From the IMG/VR virus record IMGVR_UViG_3300019762_000006, positions 1 through 64,000 of that record: 64,000 bases of DNA; one strand, 5' to 3'. A program made the translations under genes and the position numbers. The notes beneath the pieces were generated by a model that did not search any database, was not told the DNA's origin, and worked only from the letters and a program-made list of their open reading frames with translations. Origin of the DNA: a virus. Of the stretch, positions 3,178 through 58,986 are shown piece by piece. Each line of letters opens with the position of its first letter. Position 1 is the first letter of the stretch.

Positions 3178-3220
3178 TTGTTAATTCTCCTACGAATTTA
3201 ATTTGTTAGTCCTAAGACAC

Positions 3221-3248
3221 CTAATATAAAGTAAGGACTGTTAATCCT
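3221..3248 (-). promoter_or_regulatory. degenerate virion-RNAP hairpin promoter
   Basis: CTAATATAAAGTA-AGGACT-GTTA-ATCCT; loop G at +19, stem has one bulge. Confidence 0.45.
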
Positions 3249-7563: not shown

Positions 7564-9415
7564 GTTGACCGAAGAACAGAAACGTGAGGAACTAGCCGAA
7601 CTAGTTGAGCTGTATGGTGAAGACATAGTAAAAGATGTAGTTGACCAAGCAACTAAAAGACAGGCTTCTGAAGATGCTAAGGAATTGCTAAAAGATGCTG
7701 AGTTCGATTTGGATGGGGCACTGGATAGCTACGACCCAACGTTCCCAAGGTATAATCCAAGTGCGGATGCGTTCGAGTTCTTCATATTAATGAGATTAGT
7801 ACAAGGTGGAGACTTCGAGTTTGATACTCCAATAGCACACTACTTCATGGTTGATATGTTGTTAGGACATATAACAGATCCAATGATGTTCCCATATAGT
7901 GAAGAGATATGTTCAAAGATAGAGATAGATATAAATGCAATTGGGTTTATGGCAAGTAGAGGTTTAGCTAAATCAACAGTTGGTATATCTTTCTTTGCAG
8001 TATACAGTGCAATGAAAGGTAAACTTCCAAATGGTATTGGTAAAGTGTACTTCTACCTACTACTAGCAGCATCAAGTAAAGGTGGGGCAAGAGTAAATGC
8101 TCTAGCTGTAAAAGCAATGTGTGAGGATAGTAAATACTTAAACGACTACTTTGAGGAAATGAGATTTACTGAGACTGAGAGTGAGTTCATACGAAAAGAT
8201 CCTACAGGAAAAATAGCTAAAAAAGACAGGTCTTTCCTAATGAGATATCAAGGTATCAATACTGGCGTAAGGGGTTCAAGATATGGTGAAAGAAGACCAG
8301 ATGCAATAATATTTGATGATGCTATTCTAAATACAGCAGCTGCCTATTCAAAAGTAATGATGGATAACTTGGATGAAATACTAAACTCAGATGCTACCAA
8401 TGCGTTAAAAGGTGGTGGTAAAGGTAGAGTTCTACTGTACTTCACACCATTCCACTATGGAGACGTAAATACAAAAGCAATATTGAATGGGTCGTTTACT
8501 CCAGTAGTAATCCCAATGGCTAAAGCATTTGATGCTGAAAGTCCTACGCTCAAAGCAACAGACATACATAGTAGTTGGGAGGCAATGCACCCTAGAATAT
8601 CAATACTAAGCCTGATAAAGCGTGCGAAGAAGGCTAAGAAGCTTGGGCTGTTCCTGCAAGAGCGTATGCTGAGACTAACTAGTGGAAGTGAAAGATTGGT
8701 TCCAGATGAGTGTTTACAGTTCTGTGATATGTCGGTAATAGAAAATAACTTAGATGGTTACAATATATACATAACAACAGACTTCACAACAACAAGTGGT
8801 GAACAGTCAGACTTTAGTGGTATGGCAACATGGGCAGTGAATAGTAACGAAGATTGGTTTATGTTGAATCTGCACCTACGAAAAATGGGGATGGAAACCC
8901 AATATGCAAATGCATTGCAAGATGCTGACAAATACAAGCGTAAAGGTAAATATGTAGAAATTGGGGTTGAGATAGATGGTAATCAATCTGCTCATGTGAA
9001 TGCACTAGAGAAGTTAATGAGAGATGCTGGAACATACCACACATTTGCTAAACAAAAAGGTCAACTAGATAGTCCTAGAAAAGGTATACTGAGTAAAAAC
9101 TCGGGAGTAGGCGGTAAACACGAAAGATTCAGAATTGCCAGTCAAGCGTTTCTGCAGAAAAAGATATACTTACCAGAACACTTAAAAGACACACCAGATA
9201 TGCGAGAGTTCCTAGCACAAATTAGGGGTGCGACACATGAAGCCTTTACGAGATCAGATGATGGTCCAGACTTGGTGACAATGGCCATTGTTTCAATGCA
9301 TGTGTACTACCCTTCCTATGAGGCATCTACAGCACAAAAGGTAAGTCCTGATGGAGTACACTTCTTTGAAACTACATATACAGGTTCTACAATATCTGCC
9401 TATAGTAGCTACTAA
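7547..9415 (+). CDS. terL: terminase large subunit (N4 gp68-like)
   Basis: Walker A SRGLAKST, GVRG..RPDAIIFDD Walker B, nuclease ITTDF..SDFS and DDGPD. Confidence 0.9.
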   Translation: MKMKTELTEEQKREELAELVELYGEDIVKDVVDQATKRQASEDAKELLKDAEFDLDGALDSYDPTFPRYNPSADAFEFFILMRLVQGGDFEFDTPIAHYFMVDMLLGHITDPMMFPYSEEICSKIEIDINAIGFMASRGLAKSTVGISFFAVYSAMKGKLPNGIGKVYFYLLLAASSKGGARVNALAVKAMCEDSKYLNDYFEEMRFTETESEFIRKDPTGKIAKKDRSFLMRYQGINTGVRGSRYGERRPDAIIFDDAILNTAAAYSKVMMDNLDEILNSDATNALKGGGKGRVLLYFTPFHYGDVNTKAILNGSFTPVVIPMAKAFDAESPTLKATDIHSSWEAMHPRISILSLIKRAKKAKKLGLFLQERMLRLTSGSERLVPDECLQFCDMSVIENNLDGYNIYITTDFTTTSGEQSDFSGMATWAVNSNEDWFMLNLHLRKMGMETQYANALQDADKYKRKGKYVEIGVEIDGNQSAHVNALEKLMRDAGTYHTFAKQKGQLDSPRKGILSKNSGVGGKHERFRIASQAFLQKKIYLPEHLKDTPDMREFLAQIRGATHEAFTRSDDGPDLVTMAIVSMHVYYPSYEASTAQKVSPDGVHFFETTYTGSTISAYSSY

Positions 9416-30446: not shown

Positions 30447-33400
30447 ATGCCAACTCAAGAAGAACTTCTAAACGCTGTATTCGTAAATACAAATAACACA
30501 CCAAAACAAACAAATAATTCACAATATGTATACGATGCAGATACACTATACCAAAATGGTAATGGGTACAGAGTAGAAGGGATAGATGCTCCTGAGATGC
30601 CATCCTATGCACTAAAGCAAGAAAGAATTGCAAAGGCACTAAAAAGCAAGCTTGGAAGATTCGTTAGTAAAGCAACAGCTGGAGAAGCTGCTAAACTAGA
30701 AGCTGAACTAAGTACACTGAACTTCAATGGGATTGACTCAGGATTCCAAGAAACAAGCTTTAATGACAATCAACTACAACCTACTTACCAAGAAACTCCA
30801 CAATCCGATTCAAAAGGGGTATATGGGAGAGATATACTCAATAACCCAGCATACCAAAATGAACTTGTGGCTAAAGGATATGCAATACCTGCGTTTGATA
30901 ACCAGACACCAGAAGGTCAAGCACTAATGCTAAATGCAAAGAAACAAAAGCTTGGGCTTTGGGCAGATCCGGAATATGCTGCTGAAATGGAAGCAGTGGC
31001 CAATAAAAGAGGTACTAGTACAGTAGAAGAGATACCTGAATACAATATACTAAGGGGCGTGGGTTCTGCTGGATTAGATGTAGCAGCTAAGGTTGGTGGA
31101 CTGATTGGTGAAACTATTGAGTCTGCTGGTGAAGGAATTGGAGTAGATGCTGTTAAAAACAGCGGAACAGCATTGCAAAATGCCTTTACAGAGTTCCAAA
31201 GAAAACAGTATGGTAAAGAGATAACTGGGTATGTAAGTAGAAATGTAGATGAGCTTAGCGCTGAAATAGACGATACAATAAAAAAAGATGGATACATGTC
31301 TGCAATAGCTAAGGCTGTGACAGACCCAAGATCACTGGAAGTACTTGCAAATAGTGTGCCTGAAATGATAGCACTTGCGGCTAGTGTTGGAGGTATGGCT
31401 GTAGCGAATGTGAACAATAACATAAATATGGCCGAAGCTGAATTAGGTAGAAAATTAGACACAAAAGAAAAGGTGTTGAGTGCTAGTGCTAGTATAGTTG
31501 GTACGTACATGGATAGATTTGGTGACAAATTGGCACTTAGTGGGATGAATCCTACTAAAGAAGCACTAAAGACTGTGATAAATAAAATGAGCCAAGAAGG
31601 TAAAAATACACTTAGTAAGAAGTATGGTAAAGAGATACTTACAATAAGTTCTGCTCCACTTAGACTAGCTAGTGCAGGTGCTATTGAAGGATTGACTGAA
31701 AAAGGTCAAACAATGCTAGAAACTGCTGCACAAACTCCTAGAGTATTCGAGGAAGGATTTACAAAAGAAGAACTAGATGAATCCAATGTTGCTGGTGTAC
31801 TTGGGGTTACTATGGGTACACAAATGGCAAGTCCAAAAGTTGTTTATGATGTAGCTACGAAAACAGTGCCAAGTCTTCCAAAGGCTAGTAAAGATATACT
31901 AGAACGAGCTACAGAGACAGAAGCACAACGTAAAGTAAGAGAAACTACTGAAGTAAGTGCTCCAATTAGAGAGGCTGCAATAGACAGTACACTAAAAGGT
32001 GACACAGACAGTGTGGTAAAATCAGCTGAGGAGATGCATGGTAAATTAGCTAAAGAGTTAGATGGAAGTGCTCCAAAGAAGTATACATACAATGTGGTAC
32101 TATCAAATGCACTGAATAGAGCACACGAGTCGAATGATGACACAGCAATAGCTAATGTGTACAAAACAATTGGTGATTTAAATAACCGAAAAGATGTAGA
32201 CTTCAAAGCATCTGAAATGGTAGATAGTAGAATGTACGAAGCTACTAAGGAGTTTCTGGACTTAGTCAACAAAAATGACTTAACAGCAACAGATAAAATG
32301 GAAGCAATAAACTTAGGTAAAAAGATAGGTGAGAATGCTACTGAACAAAGTGCTAGTAAAAGTAACATACTAACTGAAGTAAGATTGATGAAAGAGCAAT
32401 TGGAAAAAGAGAAAAAAAGCTTAAAGTCAGTTAAAGGCTCAGAAGACTTTGGTGGACCAATAGATAAGCTAATGAAAATAGTAGATGATTACTTAGAAAA
32501 TAGAGATGCTGAAAAAGTGAATGCTCAAGTAATGGACTTAGGGTACATAGAATTGGATCCCACAAGTGGTGTACTAAAAGCAGATCCAAATAGACCTGGG
32601 TTACGTGTATATGCTAAAGAGCTAGAAAAACAGATGCTAAACCCTAACACTAATAAGAACTTACTAGATAAAAAAGTAGTTGCTAGTGGACAAGTAACAA
32701 TACCAAAGCTAGCTAAATTTGCTAAGAGTAGACTAGATAAACTAAATCCATACAAAGATAATTCTGCGTACCAAACAAGCTCATTACTAAACACACTCAA
32801 GGCCGAAAATGAACAAATGAGTAACACAATAGTAGAACTAGTGAAGATTGCTAGTAAATTAGAAATAGACAAAGAAATAAAAGATAAGTATGTAGCAAAG
32901 CTAAAAGAAGCTGGTAAAAGTGCTGTAGAAGCAAATAAAGAGATGCTAAGAAGAGAAAAGTTAATAAATGACACAACTAAACCAAGTGGAAATGGACAAC
33001 TTGCGTTCCAAGTAGACCCAGATGGTACTGAATCAATAAGACTGGTAAGTGGTGAAAGTAACACAAAAGTTGCTGATGTAGTAGATGGTAAAGTTGTGCC
33101 AATTGCACAAGAACAGAATGCGGAACAAGTTGCAGATAAACCTCTAAGTAATGCTTCAATAGTTGAAAAAGCTCCAACTAAAGAATCAATGAAAGAAGAG
33201 GGTGTAAGAAATGCTAAAAATGTGACAACTGCACCAAAGCCAAAGCAAACAGTAGTGCAATGGTTAACAGCACAACTGGATGAAATGGTTGATAACCAAA
33301 AAAAGACAATGGTAGAAGCTGCTAAAGAAATAAATGACTACTTAAGTGCACAAGGATTAGATAAAGATACAATTACTAAGTACAATGTAATACTTAGAAA

Positions 33401-36400
33401 GCTGGTAAAAGATAGAGTGGATGAAAAGAAAACTCCTCTGAATAAAGTAAGAGCTAGGGTATCAGAATTGGATACAGAACTAAGTAAGCTAGTTGAAAAC
33501 GTTGAGGATATGAATATGCTAGTACACGTAAAAGAGTACTACAAAAGAAAACTTGGTGAAGTACAAGCTGAAAGAACTACATTGAATAAGGTGCTTGATA
33601 GAATGGAGGCAGAACTAACTAAGAGAACTGGTACAAATAGAGTAAGCAAGTTAAGAGAGCTTGCTGACAAACTAATAAAAGGTATGGTAAGAGCACTACA
33701 AGAAGTTAAAAAAAGAATAAATCTAGTAAACGCTGAGCACGATAGATTAACATCAGAGCTAAATGAAATATCAACAATGATAAAAACAATTGAAGAAGAA
33801 TACATAGGTACAGTAGAACCCGAGATAGAGACTAGACAAACATCAATAGGAGAAATAACAAGATATGAAGATAGTGCTTATGGACCTATGGTAGAGCTTG
33901 GTAACAAAAGAGTAAATGCTAGAAGAACCCTAAGTCCAACAGGTAAGGTAGTACAAAGTCCGTCAAGTGCGTTGAATGATGCAATGGAAGTACTAAAACA
34001 GGATAAAATAGAAGAGTTGAATGCAGAATTAACAGAACTTGCTAGTGAAGGTATAACAAGCTTAGGAGCTAAAATACTAAAAAGAAACCTAGAAAACTTC
34101 CCAATAGTGTCTCCAGTACATAAAATACTTACTAGTGGGTATGATAGTGTATTCGGAAAGCTAGAAGGAAATATATTCAAAGATGCTGATAAATTACTAG
34201 AAGTGTTACCAAAAGGATTCAAAGACTTCTTTGCGTCAGACAAAGAGAATGAACAGGCACTAATAGATAACTTCCAAACAATGAGCAAGTATATAGAAAA
34301 TACTAAAATTGGAGATATAAAAATTGGTTCAAATAGGATTAGTAAACATATAGATCAATTTGGATTGGTAATGAACCAAAAGCTTGGGTTTGTGCCAATT
34401 GAAAGACAACTAATAGTTGGTGACAGAGTAAAGATTGGTGAAACAACATACTTAATAGGTAAAATAGAAGGAGATAAAGCTACTGTAACAATCCCAGGTA
34501 AGAAAGGTACAAGCACAAAGAAACTAAGTGAGTTCCAATCAGTTAGAGAGAAACAGCCTGAATCGTTTCCAGTAGATATAATAGAACTAATAGGAACTGT
34601 GAAAGATGATAAACTGGAGATAGATGAACAAACTGAAACAATACTAAAGTTCTACACAGCTAAGATGGTAACCGATACACAAGCTATGATTGGTAAAATA
34701 CTAAGCTTCGATGAATCAGAAATGGGACTGTACTTAGGTATCACAGATCCAGATGAACAGATAAAAGTCAAACAAGATGCACAAAATGGTTTGGTAAATT
34801 CTGCAAGTGTACGGTCAGATATAGGGAATGAAGTATACCAAGCACTAGGAATAAAGTTAACAAAGAATACTCCTGAGTTTACTGAAGAATCACTAACATC
34901 TGCGTTAGGTGTACTAGTACAAGCAATAGCAGTAGATAATGGTACAATGTCAATGGATAAGCTAACTGCAGAGAAGAATACAAACTTGATACAAGTAAAC
35001 AGAGCAGCAGTAGATAAAGCACTAGAAGTAGATGGTAGAGGTACTGAACAATTAGCAAAAGCGATGAGTAAACTACAGTACTTGAATGAAGCTAGAAATA
35101 GACCCCTACCAAAAACTGCAAAGCCTAAGCGTAAGACTAGTAGAAATGTAATGAATACAAAAATACCTATGGATGCATTGAATAACGATAAACTGAATGA
35201 TATGGAACAAATAGCATATACAATTAGTCCTAAACTACAAATGTGGTTGGCTATGGATGAAACAGAAGCATTGAAAGCCAGAGGATACGTAGAAGTTGAG
35301 TCTGCTGGTCTGCATATAAGTGAACAAGATGCACAACAAGCCAGAAATGATAAATTGGTAAGAGAATGGGAAATACTTAAGATATTTGCTCAAGCAACAA
35401 AGAATAAAAAGTTTTACTTAGATTGGGGTCAAACAGTAAGTGGTAGATTCACAATACTAAATGACATACAGTACCAAGAAAGTAAACTGCATAGAGAGTT
35501 TGTGGTAGCAGACAATAGCACAGAGACAATAGATGTAAATGATGCTGATTCAAGACAAATGTTGGAAGCTAGCATACTACAAGGGTTAGACATGGACCCA
35601 GATAAGTTAAGTACAGAAACAGCTAGTGCTAACTTCAATAAACTGTTCAAAGTAACAGATAAAGGAATTGAGGTAACTGAAAAAGGGGCAGTAAAAACAG
35701 CATATGAAGCATTGAGAGCTGGTAAGGTAGATGCGGATGCAATGGCAGAAGTATTTGCTGATTCAGAGGGACATCATGGTATAAGCTCAATAGAGTTGCT
35801 AGTAGATTGGAACAAAGCAATAGTAGATGGTACTACACTAGAAACACACGCTAACTTAGAAATTGATGCGATAACAAGTGGTATGATACTAACATTACTA
35901 CAAATAGGTACAGATAAAGCAATAGAACTTGCTGAAAAAGGTGGAATATATACGGCTGATAGAGCAAAAGAACTAGAAGCATATGTAAAACATTGGTTGG
36001 GTGATGTAACATTTACTCCAGGAGCATTGATTGAAGCTGGTAAGAAACACGCATCAGCAATTGAATCTGGTACAGATAAAAAGTTGCTAAAAGGACAAGA
36101 AACTAACTTACAAAGTGATACAGTATTCAAAGACCTGTACTCAACAATTGGGGTTGGGATGATTGAAGAAGTTCAAACATATAAAGAGAGATTACTAGCA
36201 AAATCGGATAAGACTGAGTCTGAAATGAAACAACTTGCAATGTTAAATGAGATCGGAGAGTTGAACTTAAAGAATATCCGATCAATTGCAAAGAGTCCTG
36301 TAATGGTATACATATACGGAGCAACAGTAAACTCAATTAAGAAAAAGTTAACATACTCACTTGGAATAGATACACTAGTTAAGACAATAAAGAAAGCTAG

Positions 36401-38000
36401 TAAACTACTAAAAGAGGGAAAAGATGCTGGTAAAGAGTTGGGGTTTGTAGATATGTATATACCAAACAAAGTGTACAAAGATAGATTCGGTGGTAAGATT
36501 GCAGATAATATGCCAGAGTGGAAAAAGTTGCTACACTTAGATATAGATAGTGGCACAATAAAAACAGTAGGAGATGTGATCAATGCAACATTTGGAACAG
36601 CAATTGAAACAACATTCGATAGTAGACTAGGATTCGTAGATAGAAATAGGGATGCAGTAAAAACCCTAGAAATAATAGCGTTCGAAGCATACCAAGTAAG
36701 ACTGGCCGAAGAAGTAGAAAACTTGCTAAATAGTAGATACGGGGAAGCAAAGCATGAAGGTGAGTCCTACAAAATAAGTAAAGATGACTTGGTAAACATA
36801 AACAACAAACTGACTGCACAAGGGTATGGGCATGACATCGTATGGGATGAAGCAGGTAGAGATAGAGTAAACCAAACACTTAACAAGACTGGTACTAAAG
36901 GGGGATTACATTCAAGTAGTGTGACAGTTGGTGACACAAAAGTTGGAGGGCAGATAAAACAGAATAAAGCAATAGTAAATACAGGTGCTGCATCAACAAT
37001 ACCAATCCATGCAATAGATGGTAGGATGATACTAGAAACACTAAATAGAGAATTAAAAGGTCCGCTAAAGGGTAAATACCATGGTGGGAATGTGTATGAT
37101 GCTGTAGTGCTAAGTGCTAACAAAGCAATGCTAACAGACACAGCAGACTACTACAATAAGAATATGATTGAAATAGGGTTCAGTAGATCAATAGTAGCAG
37201 ACCAAATGGCCCTAGTAGAGAATATGCTAAGTACAATGAGTGACAAACAAAAAGTAAAGATGTTCAATAGATTAGGTCTAAGACCTGAAGGAGATACTAG
37301 AGAAGACTTTACAAAAGAAGTAAACAGACTTCACTTAGGAACTGGTAAAATGCTGGAGAGACTAGAATTAGCTGAAACAACGAATAAGGAAAGATTAGTA
37401 AATAGTGGTAAAGAGTACATGTCTGGACATCTGTACCAAATGGGTTCAGGAGTAGTAAATATACCTGCTAGTGAGGTAAGAGCTAAAGAGTTCCCAGCAA
37501 TAACAACACTTAAAACAATGCTAGAAAATAAGATGATTGCTGATAGAAAACAAACAGCTGAGGAATTTGCTAGTAAGACAACAGGACAGCCAGACTATGT
37601 GCTAAACTTGTATGATATAACACAGAATACACAAGTTAAGTCAAAAGCAAATATAGCACAAATGGTGAATAAAGGCGATAAGCTAAAAGTTAGTGATAAC
37701 TTAACAGAATCTCTAGGTAGCAAAGATACAGTTGAAATAGTAGGTTCAGTTGGTAGTGAGTTAAACAATAGTCAAAAGTGGTGGTTAAATAATATGAAAA
37801 ATAATATACTTGCATCAGATGCTGGTATAGTAGCTAATAGCAATACATCAGAAAAGACAATGAGTGAATCAGGTAGAGAGCTAATTGAGGGTGTGTGGGT
37901 TAAACAAAAAGAAGCTAAAAACAAGCTAGAAAAAGATATAATAACTCCAAGTGAAGCATTCAAAAAGAATGTAAATAACAAGATAGAATGTAAGGAATAG
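30447..38000 (+). CDS. virion RNA polymerase, N-terminal plus catalytic part (N4 gp50-like), with N-terminal thermonuclease domain
   Basis: T/DxxGR (TVSGR), motif A EIDAITSG, motif B RSIAKSPVMVYIYG, motif C VYDAV; SNase motifs DADT / RVEGIDAPE / YGR / GLW. Confidence 0.9.
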   Translation: MPTQEELLNAVFVNTNNTPKQTNNSQYVYDADTLYQNGNGYRVEGIDAPEMPSYALKQERIAKALKSKLGRFVSKATAGEAAKLEAELSTLNFNGIDSGFQETSFNDNQLQPTYQETPQSDSKGVYGRDILNNPAYQNELVAKGYAIPAFDNQTPEGQALMLNAKKQKLGLWADPEYAAEMEAVANKRGTSTVEEIPEYNILRGVGSAGLDVAAKVGGLIGETIESAGEGIGVDAVKNSGTALQNAFTEFQRKQYGKEITGYVSRNVDELSAEIDDTIKKDGYMSAIAKAVTDPRSLEVLANSVPEMIALAASVGGMAVANVNNNINMAEAELGRKLDTKEKVLSASASIVGTYMDRFGDKLALSGMNPTKEALKTVINKMSQEGKNTLSKKYGKEILTISSAPLRLASAGAIEGLTEKGQTMLETAAQTPRVFEEGFTKEELDESNVAGVLGVTMGTQMASPKVVYDVATKTVPSLPKASKDILERATETEAQRKVRETTEVSAPIREAAIDSTLKGDTDSVVKSAEEMHGKLAKELDGSAPKKYTYNVVLSNALNRAHESNDDTAIANVYKTIGDLNNRKDVDFKASEMVDSRMYEATKEFLDLVNKNDLTATDKMEAINLGKKIGENATEQSASKSNILTEVRLMKEQLEKEKKSLKSVKGSEDFGGPIDKLMKIVDDYLENRDAEKVNAQVMDLGYIELDPTSGVLKADPNRPGLRVYAKELEKQMLNPNTNKNLLDKKVVASGQVTIPKLAKFAKSRLDKLNPYKDNSAYQTSSLLNTLKAENEQMSNTIVELVKIASKLEIDKEIKDKYVAKLKEAGKSAVEANKEMLRREKLINDTTKPSGNGQLAFQVDPDGTESIRLVSGESNTKVADVVDGKVVPIAQEQNAEQVADKPLSNASIVEKAPTKESMKEEGVRNAKNVTTAPKPKQTVVQWLTAQLDEMVDNQKKTMVEAAKEINDYLSAQGLDKDTITKYNVILRKLVKDRVDEKKTPLNKVRARVSELDTELSKLVENVEDMNMLVHVKEYYKRKLGEVQAERTTLNKVLDRMEAELTKRTGTNRVSKLRELADKLIKGMVRALQEVKKRINLVNAEHDRLTSELNEISTMIKTIEEEYIGTVEPEIETRQTSIGEITRYEDSAYGPMVELGNKRVNARRTLSPTGKVVQSPSSALNDAMEVLKQDKIEELNAELTELASEGITSLGAKILKRNLENFPIVSPVHKILTSGYDSVFGKLEGNIFKDADKLLEVLPKGFKDFFASDKENEQALIDNFQTMSKYIENTKIGDIKIGSNRISKHIDQFGLVMNQKLGFVPIERQLIVGDRVKIGETTYLIGKIEGDKATVTIPGKKGTSTKKLSEFQSVREKQPESFPVDIIELIGTVKDDKLEIDEQTETILKFYTAKMVTDTQAMIGKILSFDESEMGLYLGITDPDEQIKVKQDAQNGLVNSASVRSDIGNEVYQALGIKLTKNTPEFTEESLTSALGVLVQAIAVDNGTMSMDKLTAEKNTNLIQVNRAAVDKALEVDGRGTEQLAKAMSKLQYLNEARNRPLPKTAKPKRKTSRNVMNTKIPMDALNNDKLNDMEQIAYTISPKLQMWLAMDETEALKARGYVEVESAGLHISEQDAQQARNDKLVREWEILKIFAQATKNKKFYLDWGQTVSGRFTILNDIQYQESKLHREFVVADNSTETIDVNDADSRQMLEASILQGLDMDPDKLSTETASANFNKLFKVTDKGIEVTEKGAVKTAYEALRAGKVDADAMAEVFADSEGHHGISSIELLVDWNKAIVDGTTLETHANLEIDAITSGMILTLLQIGTDKAIELAEKGGIYTADRAKELEAYVKHWLGDVTFTPGALIEAGKKHASAIESGTDKKLLKGQETNLQSDTVFKDLYSTIGVGMIEEVQTYKERLLAKSDKTESEMKQLAMLNEIGELNLKNIRSIAKSPVMVYIYGATVNSIKKKLTYSLGIDTLVKTIKKASKLLKEGKDAGKELGFVDMYIPNKVYKDRFGGKIADNMPEWKKLLHLDIDSGTIKTVGDVINATFGTAIETTFDSRLGFVDRNRDAVKTLEIIAFEAYQVRLAEEVENLLNSRYGEAKHEGESYKISKDDLVNINNKLTAQGYGHDIVWDEAGRDRVNQTLNKTGTKGGLHSSSVTVGDTKVGGQIKQNKAIVNTGAASTIPIHAIDGRMILETLNRELKGPLKGKYHGGNVYDAVVLSANKAMLTDTADYYNKNMIEIGFSRSIVADQMALVENMLSTMSDKQKVKMFNRLGLRPEGDTREDFTKEVNRLHLGTGKMLERLELAETTNKERLVNSGKEYMSGHLYQMGSGVVNIPASEVRAKEFPAITTLKTMLENKMIADRKQTAEEFASKTTGQPDYVLNLYDITQNTQVKSKANIAQMVNKGDKLKVSDNLTESLGSKDTVEIVGSVGSELNNSQKWWLNNMKNNILASDAGIVANSNTSEKTMSESGRELIEGVWVKQKEAKNKLEKDIITPSEAFKKNVNNKIECKE

Positions 38001-38002
38001 AT

Positions 38003-41000
38003 ATGGGTTGTTCAGCACAAGATCAAATAGCAGGCTACAAAACAATAAATAAAAAGTTAAGAGAATTAAATCCAAATGTAGATCCAATAGGACTGCAGTT
38101 TGGTATAAACAAGTACTGGCTAGGCTTAGAAAATAATATAATGACTGATGCTGAAAAAGATGTATACAACACATTAGTAAAGCAAACAGAAGGGATAGCA
38201 TTAATAAACTTAGGCGGAACTAAACAATTGCAAGAACAGTTGGTGTTCGTTAAAGACATAGGTAAAGAGTATGTAATACATTTAGAAAGTGGTAAAAACT
38301 ACACATTCGAAAAAGGTAAAGCACAAAGTAATCCAACAAGAGCTGGTAGAACAGTAATGATGCCTGCAATGGAATTGACTAAAACATATCAAAATTCTGT
38401 AAAAGGTAGTGACCAAAACACACAAATAGGAGAAACTGAAGCAGATAAATTCATAGAACAAGAAGTAATAGATCTAGGCACAACACTAACAGATAAGTTC
38501 ATGGAAATGGCTGAGATGAATCAGGAAAGTTCAGGGTTAAAAGAACTAAGAAACAAAATGAAGATAATTGGTGAGTATGAAGTAAAGATAAATGAGTACA
38601 ATGCAAGAAATGAAGAAGCTCCAGCAAAGTTAATGGAAGACTACAACAAAACCTACGATGAGGCTGAAGCAATACAAGCAACACTGACAGAGTTTGAAGT
38701 ACTGACATCAACTGTGTTAAATACATACCAAGTAACAATGACTAATTTAGGCACTGGTGAACTAAAGATGCAAATGTTTGAGAATGCAAATAGCCAAACT
38801 GCGGCATCTATAGATTTGCGAACAAATGAAATGAAAGCTAGATGGAATAAAATGTCAAGAATAACAAACTTGAGTGAAGCGTTCCTACATGAGATAAACC
38901 ACAAGATGTCAAGTCACGTGTTCGATGCAAATGTACAACTAACAAGACTAATGAAAGACTTGCGAGATAGTGCAATAAATAGTGGTGTAACCTATGAACT
39001 GTTTCTAGACAAGATTGCTGATCCAACAGAACAAGAAATAGAAATAGCAAAGATGAAGTTTAAGTATGTGTTTGACAAAACAGCAGATATAGAAGAGTTC
39101 TACGCATATGCAACAACAAATGAGCAAGTATACAATGCGATAAAAGATGTGAAGATATCAATACCGCTAATAAAAGACCTTGAAATAGACCCTAGTAAAC
39201 CAAGCTCAATAAAAAAGGTACTAAATGCACTAATAAAAACAGTAAATACAATATGGACAACGCTAAGTGGAAGAGGAAAACGTGGTGGTCAACTAGTAGC
39301 AGAAATGGTAACAACAATAGCTAAACTAGATGCAGAAATGATGCAACAAAAAATGGTAGATGAGAATGAACAGCCTGGAGTAAGTAGCTACGCAAGAGCT
39401 AAAATGAATAGCATAGATGAGCTAATAGAACCTGTGGTAAAGAAAGTGGGAGATTGGTCAGAGAAGTTAAGTGAAGCTGGACCAAAAGATGTAAGTAAGC
39501 AAATAGCCAAAATACCAGTACTAAATGAACTAATGAATACTGGAATAACCCAATACTTGTGGAGAGCGGTAACGCAAGATACAACAACAGAGGATGTGGC
39601 AGATATGTACGCAGTGTTTAGACATAGTAAGCAAGTGGTAGAGAAACATACAGCAGACATTAGAAATGGGGTTAAGTCAGTAGCAACTGAAATGTTCAAA
39701 GACACAGACAAAACAACAAAAGACGCAATAACAAAAGTAGTACTAAGTGGAGATATGGCACAGTTCACAGCAAGTGAGATACAAGAGTACCTAAATGAGC
39801 CTGCTAAAATACAAGAAGAAATAGAAAAGCTAACAAAAATAGTACATTTGGGAGCAAGTAAAGAACTAGTAAAAAGTAGGGATAAGCAAATAGATGGACT
39901 AGCTGAGTACTTAGTAAGTGGTAAAACAGTAGCACATGATCAACAAATAAATGCAAATAATATAGCAGCAAATATGCAAATAGCGCATAGAGTGCCAAAA
40001 AGAAAGATGCCTGAAAGACCAAGTAAAGAATTAATCGATACGATAGATAAAATAGTGTCCCTAAAAGTGCTCCAAAAGTCCGATGAAGTACACACTAAAG
40101 CAATAAAAGAGTTGGTGTCTAATAAAGACGGAGTAGAATTGCTAGATAAAACAATAAATATGTATAGAGGATACATAGATAACATGAGAGCAGATGCAAC
40201 AATAGATGCACATGATCCAATACCAAAAGGATACACAAGACCAGCAGATGGACTGCTAAGATACGAGTTAATCCCTGAAGATGAAGTAAAAGCTCAGGAA
40301 AGTGTGCTAATGAGATTGGTAAATGATAAACCGTACACAATAGTAGAAGGTAAAAAATACTACTTAATGACGGGTAGAACTAAGTCAGTAGGGTTCAGTG
40401 AAGGTGCTATTGGGTTAATATCACATACAACTGAAGGTATACCCCTAAGTTCACTAATAAGAAAAAACAATGAAATGAAAGGAAATAAAGGACTAATAGA
40501 TGGGGAACTAAGAGCTAAAACAAAACAGATAGTAGAAGCAATTAGAAATTCAAAAAATGGTAGAATAAATAAGTTTGCAATGATAGAAGGACAAACACTA
40601 GTACCAGTGTACAACCACAGAAATGAGATAGTAGACTACAGAATACAGTTGAATAACCTAGAAAAAGAGATGTACTTGCCAGATAGAGAAACAGAGATAG
40701 AAGATATACTAAGTAACACATTCAGTAGAAGTATAAAAACTTCACTAACAGCCACAGAGAACAAAAGAGTGGTAGATACAATAATAGAAAACAGTGGTAG
40801 AGGAGTACTAGAAAATCCAGATGACTACGTGCTAGTAGAAGAATATACTGAAGAAGATAAAATGAATGGTGTTAAGCGTGAAAAAAGGCATGATAGATGG
40901 GAATACTTACCAGACCACACAAAAGACTACATATATCAAAGAACTAGCAATAAAGGTATACTAGTACACAAAGACTTCGTAGAATTAATGACTGGTGAAA

Positions 41001-42007
41001 AAGATGTGACGATTGGGAACTTTGCAAAGTTTGGGTTTGATATGAAACAACACCCTGTAGCAAAAGCTAGATTAATGGCATTGGAAGCCTATATAACTGA
41101 AATACTAAGCTATGTGAAGCAAGCAATGGTTGTGCTAAATGGGGATATACTAGTTGGTAACCAAGTGAGTAATGCAATGGTAGCAGCAAGTCACGGAATA
41201 AACCCAGTAAAATACACTAAAAAGTTCAAACAGAGATGGCAACAATTAAATGACTACAATGAAAAAGTACAAATGTTATCAGAGTTAGAAGTTAAGCAAA
41301 TGGCTGGTGAAAATGTTGGGTTAGAGATAAGACAACTGAAGAAACAGTTAGAAGGTAATATATGGGATGAATTGGTAAAAGATGGTCAATACACTGCGTT
41401 AGTGGAAGACGTAAATATAGAAGCTAAACTAGATGGACAAATTGCAACAATGGTACAACAACAAATAGATAAAAGTAACTTCAAAGGAATAATAGAAGGA
41501 GTTAGAAATGGTCTGTATATAGATAAAACAACAGCACTGTATCAAACAATGGCAAAATCAGTACACTATGGTGATGCGATAACAAGACAAATAATAAAAG
41601 AAGAATTGGAAGAAAAAGCAATAAAGAGAGAAGGAGAGTTAACAGAAGATGTAAAAAAAGATATACTAAACTACCTAGATCAGTTGCTAGTAAACTACGG
41701 ATACACAATGAACCGGTGGTGGAAGTACTCAGAGAGAGTGGGAGGGTTGTTCTTTATGCGATACTACATGGGACAAGCAAAAGCTATAATGAGTATGGCA
41801 AAAAAGAGTCCAACAAGGACAGCACTACTGCAAGGTGTGCAAAAAGTGACTGGTGTGGATATAGCAGACCCAATAGACACATATACCAATAGTGGTATAG
41901 ATGGAGTAACTTATAGGCATATGTTTACAGAAGCTCCTTACTTATTAGCAGAACCTAACATACTTGATCTTATACCCGACATGTCCGCGGCATTTGTAAT
42001 GAGGTAG
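38003..42007 (+). CDS. vRNAP C-terminal part as a separate ORF, with zincin-like domain
   Basis: FLHEINH and EEFYAYATTN; INANNIA, LVPVYN, HYGDAITR, LVNY resemble N4-type vRNAP C-terminal regions. Confidence 0.8.
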   Translation: MGCSAQDQIAGYKTINKKLRELNPNVDPIGLQFGINKYWLGLENNIMTDAEKDVYNTLVKQTEGIALINLGGTKQLQEQLVFVKDIGKEYVIHLESGKNYTFEKGKAQSNPTRAGRTVMMPAMELTKTYQNSVKGSDQNTQIGETEADKFIEQEVIDLGTTLTDKFMEMAEMNQESSGLKELRNKMKIIGEYEVKINEYNARNEEAPAKLMEDYNKTYDEAEAIQATLTEFEVLTSTVLNTYQVTMTNLGTGELKMQMFENANSQTAASIDLRTNEMKARWNKMSRITNLSEAFLHEINHKMSSHVFDANVQLTRLMKDLRDSAINSGVTYELFLDKIADPTEQEIEIAKMKFKYVFDKTADIEEFYAYATTNEQVYNAIKDVKISIPLIKDLEIDPSKPSSIKKVLNALIKTVNTIWTTLSGRGKRGGQLVAEMVTTIAKLDAEMMQQKMVDENEQPGVSSYARAKMNSIDELIEPVVKKVGDWSEKLSEAGPKDVSKQIAKIPVLNELMNTGITQYLWRAVTQDTTTEDVADMYAVFRHSKQVVEKHTADIRNGVKSVATEMFKDTDKTTKDAITKVVLSGDMAQFTASEIQEYLNEPAKIQEEIEKLTKIVHLGASKELVKSRDKQIDGLAEYLVSGKTVAHDQQINANNIAANMQIAHRVPKRKMPERPSKELIDTIDKIVSLKVLQKSDEVHTKAIKELVSNKDGVELLDKTINMYRGYIDNMRADATIDAHDPIPKGYTRPADGLLRYELIPEDEVKAQESVLMRLVNDKPYTIVEGKKYYLMTGRTKSVGFSEGAIGLISHTTEGIPLSSLIRKNNEMKGNKGLIDGELRAKTKQIVEAIRNSKNGRINKFAMIEGQTLVPVYNHRNEIVDYRIQLNNLEKEMYLPDRETEIEDILSNTFSRSIKTSLTATENKRVVDTIIENSGRGVLENPDDYVLVEEYTEEDKMNGVKREKRHDRWEYLPDHTKDYIYQRTSNKGILVHKDFVELMTGEKDVTIGNFAKFGFDMKQHPVAKARLMALEAYITEILSYVKQAMVVLNGDILVGNQVSNAMVAASHGINPVKYTKKFKQRWQQLNDYNEKVQMLSELEVKQMAGENVGLEIRQLKKQLEGNIWDELVKDGQYTALVEDVNIEAKLDGQIATMVQQQIDKSNFKGIIEGVRNGLYIDKTTALYQTMAKSVHYGDAITRQIIKEELEEKAIKREGELTEDVKKDILNYLDQLLVNYGYTMNRWWKYSERVGGLFFMRYYMGQAKAIMSMAKKSPTRTALLQGVQKVTGVDIADPIDTYTNSGIDGVTYRHMFTEAPYLLAEPNILDLIPDMSAAFVMR

Positions 42008-42067: not shown

Positions 42068-42247
42068 ATGTACAAACAAAATAAACCAGTAAGAGTAGGT
42101 ATGACAATTAAATCAGACTTACTAAAAGAAATGAAAGACTACTTAAAACAAGTAAATGAAAACAAGTCACTAAAATACGTAAGTCAGTCAGAGTTTGTAA
42201 ATGAGGCAATTGCTCAGCTGTTAAATAAGGAGCTGGGAGATGCGTAG
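42068..42247 (+). CDS. ribbon-helix-helix protein (59 aa)
   Basis: Translated by hand: MYKQNKPVRVGMTIKSDLLKEMKDYL...VSQSEFVNEAIAQLL. Confidence 0.8.
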   Translation: MYKQNKPVRVGMTIKSDLLKEMKDYLKQVNENKSLKYVSQSEFVNEAIAQLLNKELGDA

Positions 42248-43124
42248 GTTGACAACAGAAGAATGGATAGAGAAAGCTATAAAAGTTCATGGTAATAAGT
42301 ATGACTATAGTAAAGTGAACTACATAACAAATAACACTAAAGTAATAGTTATTTGCCCAATACATGGAGAAATAGAACAAGTGCCACGAAGTCATCTGGC
42401 TACTGTTGGGTGCCAGAAGTGTGCTAATAAAACAAAGCTGGCTAAAGAAGAGTTTATAGAGAGGGCAATAAAAGTACACGGAGATGTATATGATTATACT
42501 AAGACTGTTTATAAAAATACATATTCGAAAGTGCTCATAACCTGCCCAATACATGGTGACTGGGCACAACTCCCAATGGGTCATCTACAAAGTAGAGGCT
42601 GTCCTAAGTGTGCTATAGAAAGCAGAGTTGCGAAAAACTCAAAAACTACAGAGCAGTTTATAGAGGAAGCTAAGAAAGTGCATAATAGTAAGTATAACTA
42701 TACTAAAGTAGAGTACGTAAATCATAAAGAAAAAGTAATCATAATATGCCCAGAGCATGGAGAGTTTATGCAAAGTCCAAACAGTCATTTAATAGGTAAA
42801 GGATGTCCAAGCTGTGCTGTTACCGGGTTCGATAAAACTAAACCAGGACTGCTATACTACTTAAAAGTAACACTAGAAGATGGTAAAGAGTTGTATAAAA
42901 TCGGGATCACCAATAGGTCTGTGAATAGAAGGTTTAATCCAACAGAGTTAAAAAAGATAAAAGTGATAAAAGTAGAAGAATTTAAGTCAGGTAAAGATGC
43001 TTGGGATAAAGAAAGAGGGATACTAAGTAAGTATAAAGAGTACAAGTACATAGGTCCAGATGTGCTGGACTCAGGCAATACTGAATTGTTCACAGAGAAT
43101 GTAATGGCACTAAAATTGAATTGA
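42240..43124 (+). CDS. putative homing endonuclease: 3 DUF723-like Zn repeats + GIY-YIG (T5orf172-like) domain
   Basis: YDY.K..Y....KV.I.CP.HG...Q.P..HL..GC..C x3; LYYLKV..LYKIGITNR..GNTELF. Confidence 0.8.
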   Translation: MRRLTTEEWIEKAIKVHGNKYDYSKVNYITNNTKVIVICPIHGEIEQVPRSHLATVGCQKCANKTKLAKEEFIERAIKVHGDVYDYTKTVYKNTYSKVLITCPIHGDWAQLPMGHLQSRGCPKCAIESRVAKNSKTTEQFIEEAKKVHNSKYNYTKVEYVNHKEKVIIICPEHGEFMQSPNSHLIGKGCPSCAVTGFDKTKPGLLYYLKVTLEDGKELYKIGITNRSVNRRFNPTELKKIKVIKVEEFKSGKDAWDKERGILSKYKEYKYIGPDVLDSGNTELFTENVMALKLN

Positions 43125-57932: not shown

Positions 57933-58112
57933 ATGATAAAAAAGCAAAAACCTATTAGAGTTCATGCAACAATGGATCCAAAATTGATCCAGCAGATGAA
58001 AGATTACTTACAACAAGTAAATGATGACAAAACTTTAAAGTACGTTAGTCAATCTGAGTTTATTAGTGAAGCAGTTAACCAATTACTTAATATGGAATTA
58101 AACAATGAGTAA
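57933..58112 (+). CDS. ribbon-helix-helix protein (59 aa)
   Basis: Translated by hand: MIKKQKPIRVHATMDPKLIQQMKDYL...VSQSEFISEAVNQLL. Confidence 0.8.
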   Translation: MIKKQKPIRVHATMDPKLIQQMKDYLQQVNDDKTLKYVSQSEFISEAVNQLLNMELNNE

Positions 58113-58986
58113 AAAACTTACTACGGAGGAATTCATACAACAATCACAAAAAATTCATGTGTACAAATACACTTATTCTAATACTGTATATACAGGTGCT
58201 GCTAATAAAGTCATCATTACATGTCCTAAGCATGGCGACTTTGAGCAGACTCCTCATAATCATAAACAAGGTAAAGGTTGTAGAGCTTGTGCTAATGAGT
58301 CCCTTGCCGAAGATAGAAAAGACTCAATAGATAAAGTAATTCAAAACTTCAAGGCTGTGCATGGTGATTCGTATAAGTACAATAAAATCCAGTACAAAAA
58401 TGCCCAGACTAACGTTACAATTACATGTCCTGTGCATGGAGATTTCGAACAAGCTCCTACAAGCCATTTAGCAGGAAGAGGATGCCCTGAATGTGGTACT
58501 GAAAGGATGAAATCAACACAAGAAGAAGTCTTATTAAAATTTAAATATGCTCACAGAGACAGGTATAAATATGATAAAGTGATTTATAACAATATGAATA
58601 CTAATGTAAGCATAATCTGTCCAGAACATGGCGAATTTACACAAAATCCTGACATTCATATGAGAGGTCATGGATGTCCAAGCTGTTCTAAATCAGGATT
58701 TGACAAAAAGAAACCTGCAATACTATACTATCTAAAAGTAACAACAGATGATAATCAAGAGTTATACAAAATTGGAATAACAAATAAATCTGTGAATGAA
58801 CGGTTTAGCTTAACAGACCTAAAGAAAATTGAAATAATTAAACAAGAAGAATTCAAATCAGGTCAAGATGCTTTAGATAAAGAAACTGAGATTAAACGAA
58901 GGTTTAAAGAATTTCAGTATAAAGGGCCTAACATACTCCAAAATGGAAATACTGAATTATTTACAGTAGACCTATTTAATTTATAA
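58105..58986 (+). CDS. putative homing endonuclease: 3 DUF723-like Zn repeats + GIY-YIG (T5orf172-like) domain
   Basis: CP.HG.F.Q.P..H..G.GC..C x3; LYYLKV..LYKIGITNK..GNTELF. Confidence 0.8.
   Translation: MSKKLTTEEFIQQSQKIHVYKYTYSNTVYTGAANKVIITCPKHGDFEQTPHNHKQGKGCRACANESLAEDRKDSIDKVIQNFKAVHGDSYKYNKIQYKNAQTNVTITCPVHGDFEQAPTSHLAGRGCPECGTERMKSTQEEVLLKFKYAHRDRYKYDKVIYNNMNTNVSIICPEHGEFTQNPDIHMRGHGCPSCSKSGFDKKKPAILYYLKVTTDDNQELYKIGITNKSVNERFSLTDLKKIEIIKQEEFKSGQDALDKETEIKRRFKEFQYKGPNILQNGNTELFTVDLFNL

What the first reader, a model, noticed from the sequence alone, without database searches (positions are those of the whole stretch)
30525..30966. Staphylococcal-nuclease (thermonuclease) domain fused to the N-terminus of the virion RNA polymerase
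Seen: YVYDADTLY..YRVEGIDAPE...GVYGRDIL...NELVAKGYA...AKKQKLGLWA. Known: these match the SNase motifs DGDT, RL.GIDAPE, YGR.L and K.GLW, and the catalytic Asp, Arg, Asp, Glu and Arg equivalents appear retained, with an insertion between PE and YGR. Inference: a nuclease co-injected with the genome before any gene expression. It could attack host DNA/RNA or defence nucleic acids, or process the phage end or promoter hairpins.
Basis: partly seen in the sequence, partly recalled or inferred. Interest (0 to 1): 0.8.

Follow-up and report, generated by a model that had tools for sequence, protein, structure and literature searches.

The report
Nuclease head on phage virion polymerase
An uncultured N4-like phage carries a staphylococcal-nuclease-type domain, with its catalytic residues intact, at the very start of the giant RNA polymerase it packs into its particle, so it probably delivers a nuclease into the host together with its DNA.

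Summary
Observation confirmed. Window 30525-30966 (+) encodes aa 27-173 of a 2517-aa ORF (30447-38000). That ORF is the large piece of a split N4-like virion RNA polymerase (PHROG 2206).

The head is a true SNase-superfamily domain:
- The window's own Pfam score is below cut-off (18.3 vs 21 bits).
- 14 of 14 family N-termini hit PF00565, and 4 of 4 relatives scanned whole pass the cut-off over the whole profile.
- A 26-sequence family profile matches standalone SNases at hhalign probability 99.3%, E 1e-20.
- The equivalents of SNase D21, R35, E43 and R87 are invariant in 26 of 26 sequences, and D40 in 25 of 26.
- A model built with a mixed alignment matches SNase best (Z 9.7).

The fusion is rare:
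- 21 clusters among 1.84 billion representatives.
- 0 of 50,697 phage records by tblastn.
- 0 of 10 cultured Schitoviridae genomes.
- No paper found.

Of 33 proteins sharing the adjoining module, 16 have this head and 17 have other, unrecognised heads. The head therefore looks swappable.

Best reading: an ejected effector nuclease. Its substrate and compartment are not shown. It is a new variant of the known "polyvalent" virion polymerase theme.

The parts
30447..38000 (+). ORF1, 2517 aa: large piece of a split N4-like virion RNA polymerase (nuclease head, conserved N-module, long variable linker, polymerase domain)
   Evidence: open frame; AAGGA before the ATG; phrog_2206, E 3.2e-42.
30519..30971 (+). 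SNase-like nuclease domain, aa 25-175
   Evidence: hhalign aligns window residues 22-175 with standalone SNases. VIA-align matches model residues 25-173 to 1sta_A, Z 9.7. Pfam SNase hits.
30534..30545 (+). DADT motif (D30, D32, T33), equivalent of SNase DGDT
   Evidence: D30 and D32 are invariant in 26 of 26 family sequences and in 68 of 68 sequences that include 47 standalone SNases.
30570..30596 (+). RVEGIDAPE motif (R42, D47, P49, E50): phosphate-binding Arg, calcium-ligand Asp and general-base Glu equivalents
   Evidence: R42, P49 and E50 are invariant in 26 of 26; D47 in 25 of 26, with Asn in P0024. Standalone SNases share GIDAPE as invariant columns. The residue roles are recalled.
30597..30662 (+). 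Family-wide insert 1, aa 51-72: an extra helix directly after the PE motif
   Evidence: Unaligned to standalone SNases in hhalign. Helix 54-66 in the model. Present in all 26 family sequences. The boundaries are my reading.
30735..30809 (+). Insert 2, aa 97-121 (GFQETSFNDNQ... stretch)
   Evidence: Present in the window and its near relatives and, in longer form, in the distant members. Absent from the short-insert subgroup P0006, P0008-P0015 and P0023. Low model confidence.
30822..30830 (+). YGR motif (Y126, G127, R128), equivalent of SNase Y85-G86-R87
   Evidence: R128 is invariant in 26 of 26 and 68 of 68. Alignment.
30954..30962 (+). GLW motif (G170, L171, W172) closing the domain
   Evidence: G170 and L171 are invariant and W172 is at least 90% conserved in the family. 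G170 and W172 are invariant in 68 of 68.
31044..32006 (+). Conserved N-module, aa 200-520, of unknown fold; it travels with variable heads
   Evidence: 45-63% identity in 32 other proteins. No Pfam match. No match in phage records.
31332..31412 (+). Hydrophobic segment, aa 296-322 (SLEVLANSVPEMIALAASVGGMAVANV): candidate membrane-interacting helix
   Evidence: Hydropathy scan. Conserved in relatives' sequences. The analogy to the predicted membrane helices of the N4 N-terminal domain comes from passages.
34731..37934 (+). Single-subunit RNA polymerase domain, aa 1429-2496
   Evidence: phrog_2206 profile positions 1062-2033. 21-25% identity to annotated Schitoviridae virion polymerases.
38003..42007 (+). 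ORF2, 1334 aa: separately encoded C-terminal domain of the virion polymerase, with HEINH at aa 296-300 (window 38888-38902)
   Evidence: phrog_2206 profile positions 2269-3378, E 3.5e-69. HExxH scan. Junction sequence.

Best explanation
ORF1 (30447-38000) is the large piece of a two-piece N4-like virion RNA polymerase. Its first ~175 residues are a genuine, probably active, staphylococcal-nuclease-type phosphodiesterase.

Proposed mechanism, all inferred. The polymerase is packed in the capsid and threaded into the cell N-terminus first, as proposed for N4. The nuclease head is then the leading globular unit to refold at the entry site, ahead of the hydrophobic segment at aa 296-322 that may hold the N-terminal region at the inner membrane. 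There it would cut nucleic acid that is not the phage's own, most likely host DNA or RNA or a nucleic-acid part of a defence system. This would happen before any phage gene is expressed. It would make the head an effector of the kind described for 'polyvalent' ejected proteins. SNase-type enzymes depend on calcium (recalled), which would keep the domain quiet in the producing cell's cytoplasm.

Shown here: homology, the fusion, conservation of the catalytic set, rarity, and the swappable nature of the head. Not shown: activity, packaging, ejection, substrate and compartment.
For: 1. Homology.
- 14 of 14 family N-termini hit PF00565.
- 4 of 4 relatives scanned whole pass the cut-off over the whole profile.
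- The 26-sequence family profile finds 520 short proteins at E<=0.001 in 5.8 billion. Of the 120 listed, 117 carry PF00565; the 3 without it are family fragments.
- hhalign gives 99.3%, E 1e-20.

2. Active site.
- D30, D32, R42, P49, E50 and R128 are among only 11 invariant columns of the 26-sequence alignment, whose mean column identity is 32%. D47 is kept in 25 of 26.
- The same columns are invariant or at least 90% conserved across 68 sequences that include 47 standalone SNases.

3. Fold. The mixed-alignment model has pLDDT 78.9.
- Foldseek's top 50 PDB rows are all SNase, best E 1e-4.
- VIA-align gives 1sta_A Z 9.7, rmsd 3.5 over 112 residues, then Tudor-SN SN domains at Z 8.9 and 8.8.

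4. Fusion to a virion polymerase inside a structural gene block. Relatives show the same fusion, among them an unsplit 3382-aa polymerase, P0022.

5. The head and its adjoining module are 47-65% identical between proteins whose polymerase domains are 20-25% identical. In P0005 the head is the only part that BLASTP detects.

6. The head is a slot.
- 16 of 33 module-sharing proteins have the SNase head and 17 have others.
- A cultured Vibrio phage polymerase has a near-threshold lysozyme match at the same place.

7. Precedent. N4-like polymerases fused to ADP-ribosyltransferase, lysozyme or a predicted RNase, read as early effectors (passages of PMC5512222).

8. The N4 polymerase is described as ejected, with its N-terminal domain at the membrane (passages of PMC13434306).
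Against: - The window's own Pfam score is under the cut-off and covers only the C-terminal half of the profile.
- A model built from family sequences alone failed, pLDDT 55.7. The good model used an alignment holding 47 standalone SNases, so its fold is partly borrowed from them.
- The Asp four residues before the YGR arginine is invariant in 30 standalone SNases. It is Gly in the window and several relatives.
- SNase-type enzymes need roughly millimolar calcium (recalled), which the cytoplasm lacks. A cytoplasmic target is therefore doubtful.
- A non-specific nuclease packed beside the genome and entering with it endangers the phage's own DNA. No inhibitor or DNA-modification gene was seen among the window genes I scanned.
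- 17 of 33 module-sharing relatives do without this head, so it is not needed for the core job.
- For the cultured split-polymerase podophages, the authors argued that the large piece is not injected.
Confidence: 0.5

Rival explanations
1. The head works outside the cytoplasm. It refolds in the calcium-rich periplasm, or at the ion-leaky entry channel, and cuts DNA that passes there, such as the DNA of a second infecting phage or incoming foreign DNA. It would then be an exclusion device rather than a host-shutoff device.
For: - SNase-family enzymes are typically secreted and calcium-dependent (recalled).
- The head lies N-terminal to the hydrophobic segment at aa 296-322.
- In a cultured Vibrio phage the same N-terminal position holds a near-threshold lysozyme match, which could only act in the periplasm.
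- The N4 N-terminal domain is placed at the inner membrane.
Against: - No nucleic acid is known to lie free in the periplasm during normal infection.
- There would be only a few molecules per infected cell.
- The N-terminal regions of the window protein and the lysozyme-bearing polymerase share no detectable similarity, so the positional argument is weak.
- Topology was not tested.
Confidence: 0.15
2. The head acts on the phage's own DNA. It trims or nicks the leading genome end, or the hairpin promoter region, as part of starting entry and early transcription.
For: - The N4 N-terminal domain is described as required for genome injection (passage in PMC3821669).
- SNase prefers single-stranded DNA (recalled).
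Against: - 17 of 33 close relatives with the same N-module lack the SNase head, and 0 of 10 cultured Schitoviridae genomes have one. An essential step of genome processing is therefore unlikely to depend on it.
- SNase has no sequence specificity (recalled).
Confidence: 0.1
3. The domain is used for binding, not cutting. It is an OB-fold handle that grips the genome end or a partner ejection protein, like the inactive SN domains of Tudor-SN.
For: The model matches Tudor-SN SN domains nearly as well as SNase itself (Z 8.9 and 8.8 against 9.7). The N-terminal domain has a role in DNA entry in N4.
Against: The equivalents of the catalytic and calcium-binding residues are invariant across 26 sequences down to 26% identity. 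That is not expected if catalysis had been given up. That Tudor-SN domains have lost these residues is recalled.
Confidence: 0.1
4. The nuclease matters in the producing cell or its lysate, not after ejection. Polymerase molecules made late, in hundreds, would become active when calcium floods in at lysis. They would then digest the released host DNA and free the progeny from a sticky matrix.
For: - Far more copies exist late in infection than are ejected (inference).
- Calcium gating fits this timing (recalled chemistry).
Against: There is no reason for such an enzyme to be fused to the leading end of a packaged protein rather than made free. No evidence of any kind was obtained here.
Confidence: 0.08

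Closest known systems
Staphylococcus aureus nuclease A (thermonuclease, micrococcal nuclease; Pfam PF00565) and bacterial YncB-type homologues
   Same: - Same motif order: D-x-D-T, R-x-x-G-I-D-x-P-E, Y-G-R, G-Y-A, G-L-W.
- Same invariant acidic and arginine residues.
- Best structural match.
   Different: - Not a free secreted ~150-aa enzyme but the head of a 2517-aa virion protein.
- An extra helix right after the PE motif and a second insert before YGR.
- A shorter hairpin after YGR (my reading).
- Gly in place of the Asp four residues before the arginine.
- Separated from 47 standalone SNases by a long, fully supported branch (100/100, length 2.34).
- The window's own Pfam score is below the cut-off.
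Coliphage N4 gp50 and other Schitoviridae virion RNA polymerases
   Same: - Giant polymerase encoded among virion genes.
- Polymerase domain and C-terminal domain match the same family profile.
- N4-like portal, 39-42% identical.
- Three same-strand genes precede it, as in two cultured relatives.
   Different: - Split into 2517 + 1334 aa.
- Polymerase domain only 21-25% identical.
- The N-terminal region shows no detectable similarity to two cultured relatives.
- 0 of 10 cultured genomes from 10 genera have an SNase match anywhere.
'Polyvalent' ejected proteins (Iyer et al. 2017, PMC5512222): N4-like polymerases fused to ADP-ribosyltransferase, lysozyme/transglycosylase or a predicted BECR-fold RNase, together with a zincin-like peptidase
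   Same: A catalytic effector-type domain on the injected polymerase. An HExxH motif lies in the C-terminal piece, where that paper places the peptidase.
   Different: The effector here is an SNase-type nuclease. The words SNase, staphylococcal and thermonuclease do not occur in that paper's main text. Its supplements were not seen.
Split virion polymerase of Alteromonas podophages AltAD45-P1 to P4 (PMC3821669)
   Same: Two adjacent genes of similar sizes (2481 + 1404 aa there, 2517 + 1334 aa here) in podophage genomes of about 100 kb. Both polypeptides were seen on gels there.
   Different: The word nuclease does not occur in that paper. I could not reach those sequences, so I do not know whether they carry the head. 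No Alteromonas AD45 record appeared in my searches of the phage collection.
SN domains of eukaryotic Tudor-SN (SND1)
   Same: Same fold class; second and third best structural matches.
   Different: Those domains serve as binding scaffolds and lack the nuclease's catalytic set (recalled). Here the set is invariant.

Membership tests
SNase superfamily (Pfam PF00565, Staphylococcal nuclease homologue) | Sequence match to the family profile at or above the curated cut-off (21 bits) | tested here: inconclusive
   - Window protein: 18.3 bits, E 0.0033, profile positions 59-107 only; 16.9 bits in the six-frame genome search.
- Family level: 14 of 14 N-termini hit at E<=0.1. P0012, P0013, P0014 and P0015 score 28.8, 23.3, 30.2 and 22.7 bits over the whole profile.
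- Profile against profile: 99.3%, E 1e-20.
Met for the family, narrowly missed by this one sequence.
SNase superfamily (Pfam PF00565, Staphylococcal nuclease homologue) | Catalytic and calcium-binding residues (equivalents of D21, R35, D40, E43, R87; roles recalled) | tested here: met
   D32, R42, D47, E50 and R128 are all present in the window. Four are invariant in 26 of 26 and D47 in 25 of 26. They lie in the same columns as in 47 standalone SNases and in the PDB SNase chain alignment.
SNase superfamily (Pfam PF00565, Staphylococcal nuclease homologue) | OB-fold barrel with three helices | tested here: inconclusive
   The mixed-alignment model (pLDDT 78.9) matches SNase best. That alignment contained standalone SNases. 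The family-only model failed (pLDDT 55.7). The fourth barrel strand falls in the low-confidence insert.
SNase superfamily (Pfam PF00565, Staphylococcal nuclease homologue) | Calcium-dependent hydrolysis of DNA and RNA to 3'-phosphate products | not testable with these tools
   Needs a biochemical assay.
N4-like virion RNA polymerase (PHROG 2206; Schitoviridae gp50 type) | Match of the polymerase domain and of the C-terminal domain to the family profile | tested here: met
   ORF1 aa 1429-2496 match profile positions 1062-2033, E 3.2e-42. ORF2 aa 213-1299 match profile positions 2269-3378, E 3.5e-69.
N4-like virion RNA polymerase (PHROG 2206; Schitoviridae gp50 type) | One polypeptide of about 3500 aa | tested here: not met
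   Two ORFs are separated by TAG and 2 bases. The split is shared by relatives and known from AltAD45 phages. One relative, P0022, is unsplit at 3382 aa and also carries the head.
N4-like virion RNA polymerase (PHROG 2206; Schitoviridae gp50 type) | Encoded within the virion and late gene block of an N4-like genome | tested here: met
   Terminase, portal (phrog_1216, E 1.7e-175), major head and tail genes lie upstream on the same strand. The portal is 39-42% identical to Schitoviridae portals.
N4-like virion RNA polymerase (PHROG 2206; Schitoviridae gp50 type) | Packaged in the capsid and ejected into the host | not testable with these tools
   Known for N4 (passages). For this phage it is only an inference.
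Polyvalent ejected effector proteins (Iyer et al. 2017) | Several unrelated catalytic domains in one virion-delivered protein, usually with a zincin-like peptidase | tested here: inconclusive
   SNase head plus polymerase in ORF1. An HExxH motif in ORF2 fits the described peptidase position, but I did not test that region against a peptidase profile.

The most novel reading that the evidence does not exclude
The extreme N-terminus of these split virion polymerases is a swappable weapon slot, and the SNase head is a calcium-gated nuclease. It would stay silent in the producing cell's cytoplasm. It would fire only where calcium is available: in the periplasm, or at the leaky entry channel during ejection. 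That would give the phage a nuclease acting at the moment and place of entry, against host or rival-phage nucleic acid, without harming its own replication. The two other head types found on the same module (17 of 33 proteins, no recognisable family) would be further, undescribed effector domains.
Probability: 0.2. Interest if true: 0.75.

Novelty: new variant of a known kind. Interest (0 to 1): 0.5.

Why it matters
Proteins that a phage injects with its DNA act before any phage gene is read. They are therefore its first move against the host. Virion polymerases of N4-like phages were already known to carry added enzyme domains, but I found no report of a DNA/RNA nuclease of the staphylococcal type among them.

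If the domain is active, two questions follow. How does a phage keep a non-specific nuclease from destroying the genome packed beside it? And what does it cut on arrival? The finding also shows that the leading end of these polymerases is exchanged between lineages far more freely than the polymerase itself. This points to two further head types of unknown fold that may be new effectors.

Tried and rejected
Searches that gave nothing for the SNase question:
- Single-sequence and family-only profile searches of PDB sequences. The mixed profile A4 hit SNase strongly, but it is dominated by standalone SNases, so I do not count it as independent evidence.
- The first structure prediction, from the 14-sequence family alignment, was too poor to use.
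- blastn and tblastn of the head against 50,697 phage records: no match. The adjoining module: no match. The tool warns that records very near the window's genome may be left out.

Search for a cultured carrier:
- The nearest cultured phage by the C-terminal domain is Alteromonas phage PT15-A5, at 21% identity.
- It has no match to the family profile (an empty answer without a positive control in that call).
- Its polymerase has no Pfam domain in the first 500 aa.
- Cluster look-ups gave no names for five relatives.

Alternative heads. I suspected that type B (6 proteins) might be a degenerate SNase and type C (11 proteins) a GIY-YIG-like nuclease. Neither idea is supported; I leave the heads as unknown.
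- Pfam found nothing in the 7 heads scanned (4 of type B, 3 of type C).
- hhalign gave only 17-20% probability for type B against SNase profiles and nothing for type C.
- A PDB profile search for type C found nothing.
- The Atlas gave no usable hit for type B.

Other points:
- BLASTP of the window's first 1000 aa against the same region of two cultured polymerases showed nothing significant. So I cannot say the SNase head replaced a lysozyme in a homologous frame.
- I looked for DNA-modification or inhibitor genes that could protect the phage DNA. Among the 20 window ORFs scanned with PHROGs I saw only ordinary replication and nucleotide genes. Small ORFs were not scanned.
- I rejected a gene-fusion artefact: the same fusion recurs in independent contigs.
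Domain tables in the supplements of PMC5512222 could list an SNase fusion that I could not see.
Full report
THE SEQUENCE

The minus strand is closed. The stretch is aa 27-173 of an open frame from 30447 to 38000, 2517 aa, with AAGGA eight bases before the ATG.

The frame matches the PHROG family of virion RNA polymerases at aa 1429-2496, profile positions 1062-2033, E 3.2e-42. The next ORF, 38003-42007 (1334 aa), starts two bases after the TAG. It matches the C-terminal third of the same profile, positions 2269-3378, E 3.5e-69. The observation therefore holds, with one refinement: the polymerase is made as two proteins, and the nuclease-like head sits on the larger one.

THE PHAGE

- The window lies in a linear virus record of 89,998 bases, estimated 84% complete, with 36.6% G+C.
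- Terminase, an N4-type portal, major head and tail genes lie upstream on the same strand. Ribonucleotide reductase, thymidylate synthase, ligase, helicase and primase lie on the other strand.
- The portal is 39-42% identical to portals of cultured Schitoviridae. The polymerase domain is only 21-25% identical.
- This is a deep N-4-like lineage. A relative with 65% identity in the head is a complete 107,713-base genome with terminal repeats.
- A split polymerase of nearly the same sizes (2481 + 1404 aa) was described in the ~100-kb Alteromonas podophages AltAD45-P1 to P4. It was checked there by resequencing, and both polypeptides were seen on gels (passages of PMC3821669).

IS THE HEAD AN SNASE?

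Sequence evidence:
- On its own the window sequence falls just short: 18.3 bits against a cut-off of 21, over the C-terminal half of the profile only.
- Relatives settle the matter. A word-indexed search found 14 other proteins of 1964-2429 aa with this N-terminus.
- An exhaustive search of 1.84 billion representatives found 21 clusters including the window's own. Fifteen are proteins of 965-3382 aa and six are short fragments.
- All 14 aligned N-termini hit PF00565, best E 2.6e-8.
- Four relatives, 47-51% identical to the window over the head, pass the cut-off across the whole profile.
- A 26-sequence family alignment, searched as a profile against 5.8 billion proteins of 101-464 aa, gave 520 hits at E<=0.001. 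Of the 120 listed, 117 carry PF00565. The three that do not are fragments of the family itself.
- The family profile compared with a profile of 30 of those standalone SNases gave 99.3% probability, E 1e-20. The standalone set was picked from the family's own hits. Their Pfam labels, however, are independent of my query.

Active site:
- The 26-sequence alignment has a mean column identity of 32% and only 11 invariant columns: M1, D30, D32, R42, P49, E50, R128, G144, A164, G170 and L171. D47 is kept in 25 of 26, with Asn in P0024.
- In the 68-sequence alignment with 47 standalone SNases, D30, D32, P49, E50, R128, G144, G170 and W172 are invariant. R42 and D47 are at least 90% conserved.
- Through the printed alignment to a PDB SNase chain, these are the columns of SNase D19, D21, R35, D40, P42, E43 and R87.
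- Their roles are recalled, not tested: calcium ligands D21 and D40, general base E43, phosphate-binding R35 and R87.
- One difference: the Asp four residues before the arginine is invariant in the 30 standalone proteins. It is Gly in the window and several relatives.

Fold:
- A model from the 14-sequence family alignment failed, pLDDT 55.7.
- A model from the 68-sequence mixed alignment reached pLDDT 78.9, pTM 0.70.
- Foldseek's first 50 PDB rows are all staphylococcal nuclease, best E 1e-4, TM 0.57 on the target.
- The Foldseek-independent search put an SNase chain first (Z 9.7, rmsd 3.5, 112 residues). Tudor-SN SN domains followed (Z 8.9 and 8.8), then extended Tudor domains.
- Because the alignment held standalone SNases, this shows the sequence is compatible with the fold. 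It is not independent proof.

The insertion has two parts (my reading):
- An extra helix directly after the PE motif, about aa 51-72, is present in the whole family.
- A second insert, about aa 97-121, is present in the window, its near relatives and the more distant long-insert members. It is absent from a short-insert subgroup (P0006, P0008-P0015, P0023).
- The strikingly conserved ATAGEAAKLEAEL stretch aligns with the first helix of ordinary SNases.

HOW COMMON, AND IS IT KNOWN?

- The head has no match in 50,697 phage records. It has five loci in 2.9 million IMG/VR contigs.
- PF00565 matched nowhere in 10 cultured Schitoviridae genomes of 10 genera. It matched in 3 of 4 IMG/VR relatives in the same call.
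- In a tree, the 21 fused domains stand on one side of a fully supported long branch (100/100, length 2.34) from 47 standalone SNases. That fits one origin of the fusion. The standalone sample is small and was chosen by similarity.
- Four literature searches returned no paper.
- The closest concept in print is the polyvalent protein. Iyer et al. 2017 describe N4-like polymerases fused to a zincin-like peptidase and, in some phages, to ADP-ribosyltransferase, lysozyme or a predicted RNase, and read them as early effectors. SNase, staphylococcal and thermonuclease do not occur in the main text (passages of PMC5512222). Its supplements were not seen.

THE HEAD IS A MODULE

- BLASTP of the whole ORF1 against 23 long relatives shows 47-65% identity over the first 190-520 residues in many of them. 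Their polymerase domains are 20-25% identical. In P0005 only aa 16-189 match at all.
- Searching with aa 200-520 found 33 proteins including the window's. By a family HMM, 16 have the SNase head (E 1e-28 or better). The other 17 have none at E<=10 and instead carry heads of about 240-410 aa, of two kinds.
- I could not assign those heads to any family.
- In the cultured Vibrio phage 1.026.O the polymerase starts with a near-threshold lysozyme match, aa 30-125, 21.3 bits against a cut-off of 22.3. Its record notes a lysozyme InterPro entry.
- The leading end of these polymerases is therefore a variable slot for an enzyme-like head.

MECHANISM

Shown: homology, an intact catalytic set under long-term conservation, fusion to the polymerase, and modular exchange.

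Inferred from N4:
- The polymerase is packed and ejected.
- Its N-terminal domain binds lipid, associates with the tunnel protein, and stays at the inner membrane while the polymerase and C-terminal domains refold in the cytoplasm (passages of PMC13434306).

In ORF1 the only clearly hydrophobic stretch of the N-terminal region is aa 296-322, downstream of the head. The head would thus be the first globular unit of the polymerase to emerge.

I commit to an ejected effector nuclease that cuts non-phage nucleic acid at entry, at about 0.5. The main doubts:
- SNase-type enzymes need calcium (recalled), which argues for action outside the cytoplasm or at a leaky channel.
- A non-specific nuclease is dangerous to the genome it travels with.
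- Half of the module-sharing relatives lack it.
- SNase leaves 3'-phosphate products (recalled), which are poor for nucleotide salvage. That speaks for destruction rather than recycling, even though the phage encodes reductase and thymidylate synthase.

The rivals are periplasmic action, action on the phage's own DNA, a binding-only role, and action in the lysate. None could be tested here.

SEEN IN PASSING

- ORF1 has a single cysteine three residues from its end, and ORF2 a single cysteine at residue 3.
- 24 of 25 long relatives have one cysteine within their last six residues. The unsplit relative has none.
- In two relatives the polymerase is in three pieces, and the middle piece has a cysteine at each end.
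- I saw this before consulting the scan's notes, which already hold it with a follow-up (e1-6122078).

VERDICT

The finding is a new variant of a known kind, of moderate interest.

Noticed in passing
window 37989-38011 (end of ORF1, start of ORF2): ORF1 has exactly one cysteine (aa 2515, third from its end) and ORF2 exactly one (aa 3). 24 of 25 long relatives have a single cysteine within their last 6 residues, and the unsplit 3382-aa relative has none. This suggests the pieces are tied end to end by a disulfide. The scan already holds this finding (e1-6122078).
   Followed up: partly
L020 (G001) 7631-8320 and L021 (G002) 4937-5617: In two relatives the polymerase is in three pieces. A ~215-aa middle ORF between the large and the C-terminal piece starts MSKC and ends with a cysteine 3-5 residues from its end. 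The flanking pieces end in ...ENC and start MGC or MSC.
   Followed up: partly
proteins P0151-P0175 (relatives of window aa 200-520): 17 of 33 proteins sharing the conserved N-module carry other N-terminal heads of two kinds (6 and 11 proteins). They have invariant polar residues but no match in Pfam, PDB sequences or the Atlas. They may be undescribed effector domains.
   Followed up: partly
window 38888-38902 (ORF2 aa 296-300): An HEINH motif, the only HExxH in either polymerase ORF. It lies where Iyer et al. place a zincin-like peptidase in N4-like polymerases. It was not tested against a peptidase profile.
   Followed up: no
window 42240-43124 (+) and 58105-58986 (+): Two paralogous endonuclease genes (phrog_681 and the HNH family phrog_559, E 1e-68 to 1e-71). 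One lies directly downstream of the polymerase, the other inside the replication block on the opposite strand to its neighbours. They look like homing endonucleases.
   Followed up: no
window 59715-60500 (-) and 60732-63011 (-): The DNA primase family phrog_2135 is matched in two separate ORFs: profile positions 11-383 in the 759-aa ORF and 481-708 in the 261-aa ORF. A ~230-base gap lies between them. This may be another split gene.
   Followed up: no
L007 2104-3603 (Vibrio phage 1.026.O virion polymerase, aa 30-125): A near-threshold Phage_lysozyme match (21.3 bits, cut-off 22.3) at the extreme N-terminus of a cultured Schitoviridae polymerase. This is the same position as the SNase head here.
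   Followed up: partly
window 30666-30710 (aa 74-88, SKATAGEAAKLEAEL): The most conserved stretch of the head among the 14 closer relatives: 9 invariant residues in 15. It is more conserved than the catalytic motifs around it and aligns with the first helix of ordinary SNases. The reason for this conservation is unknown.
   Followed up: no
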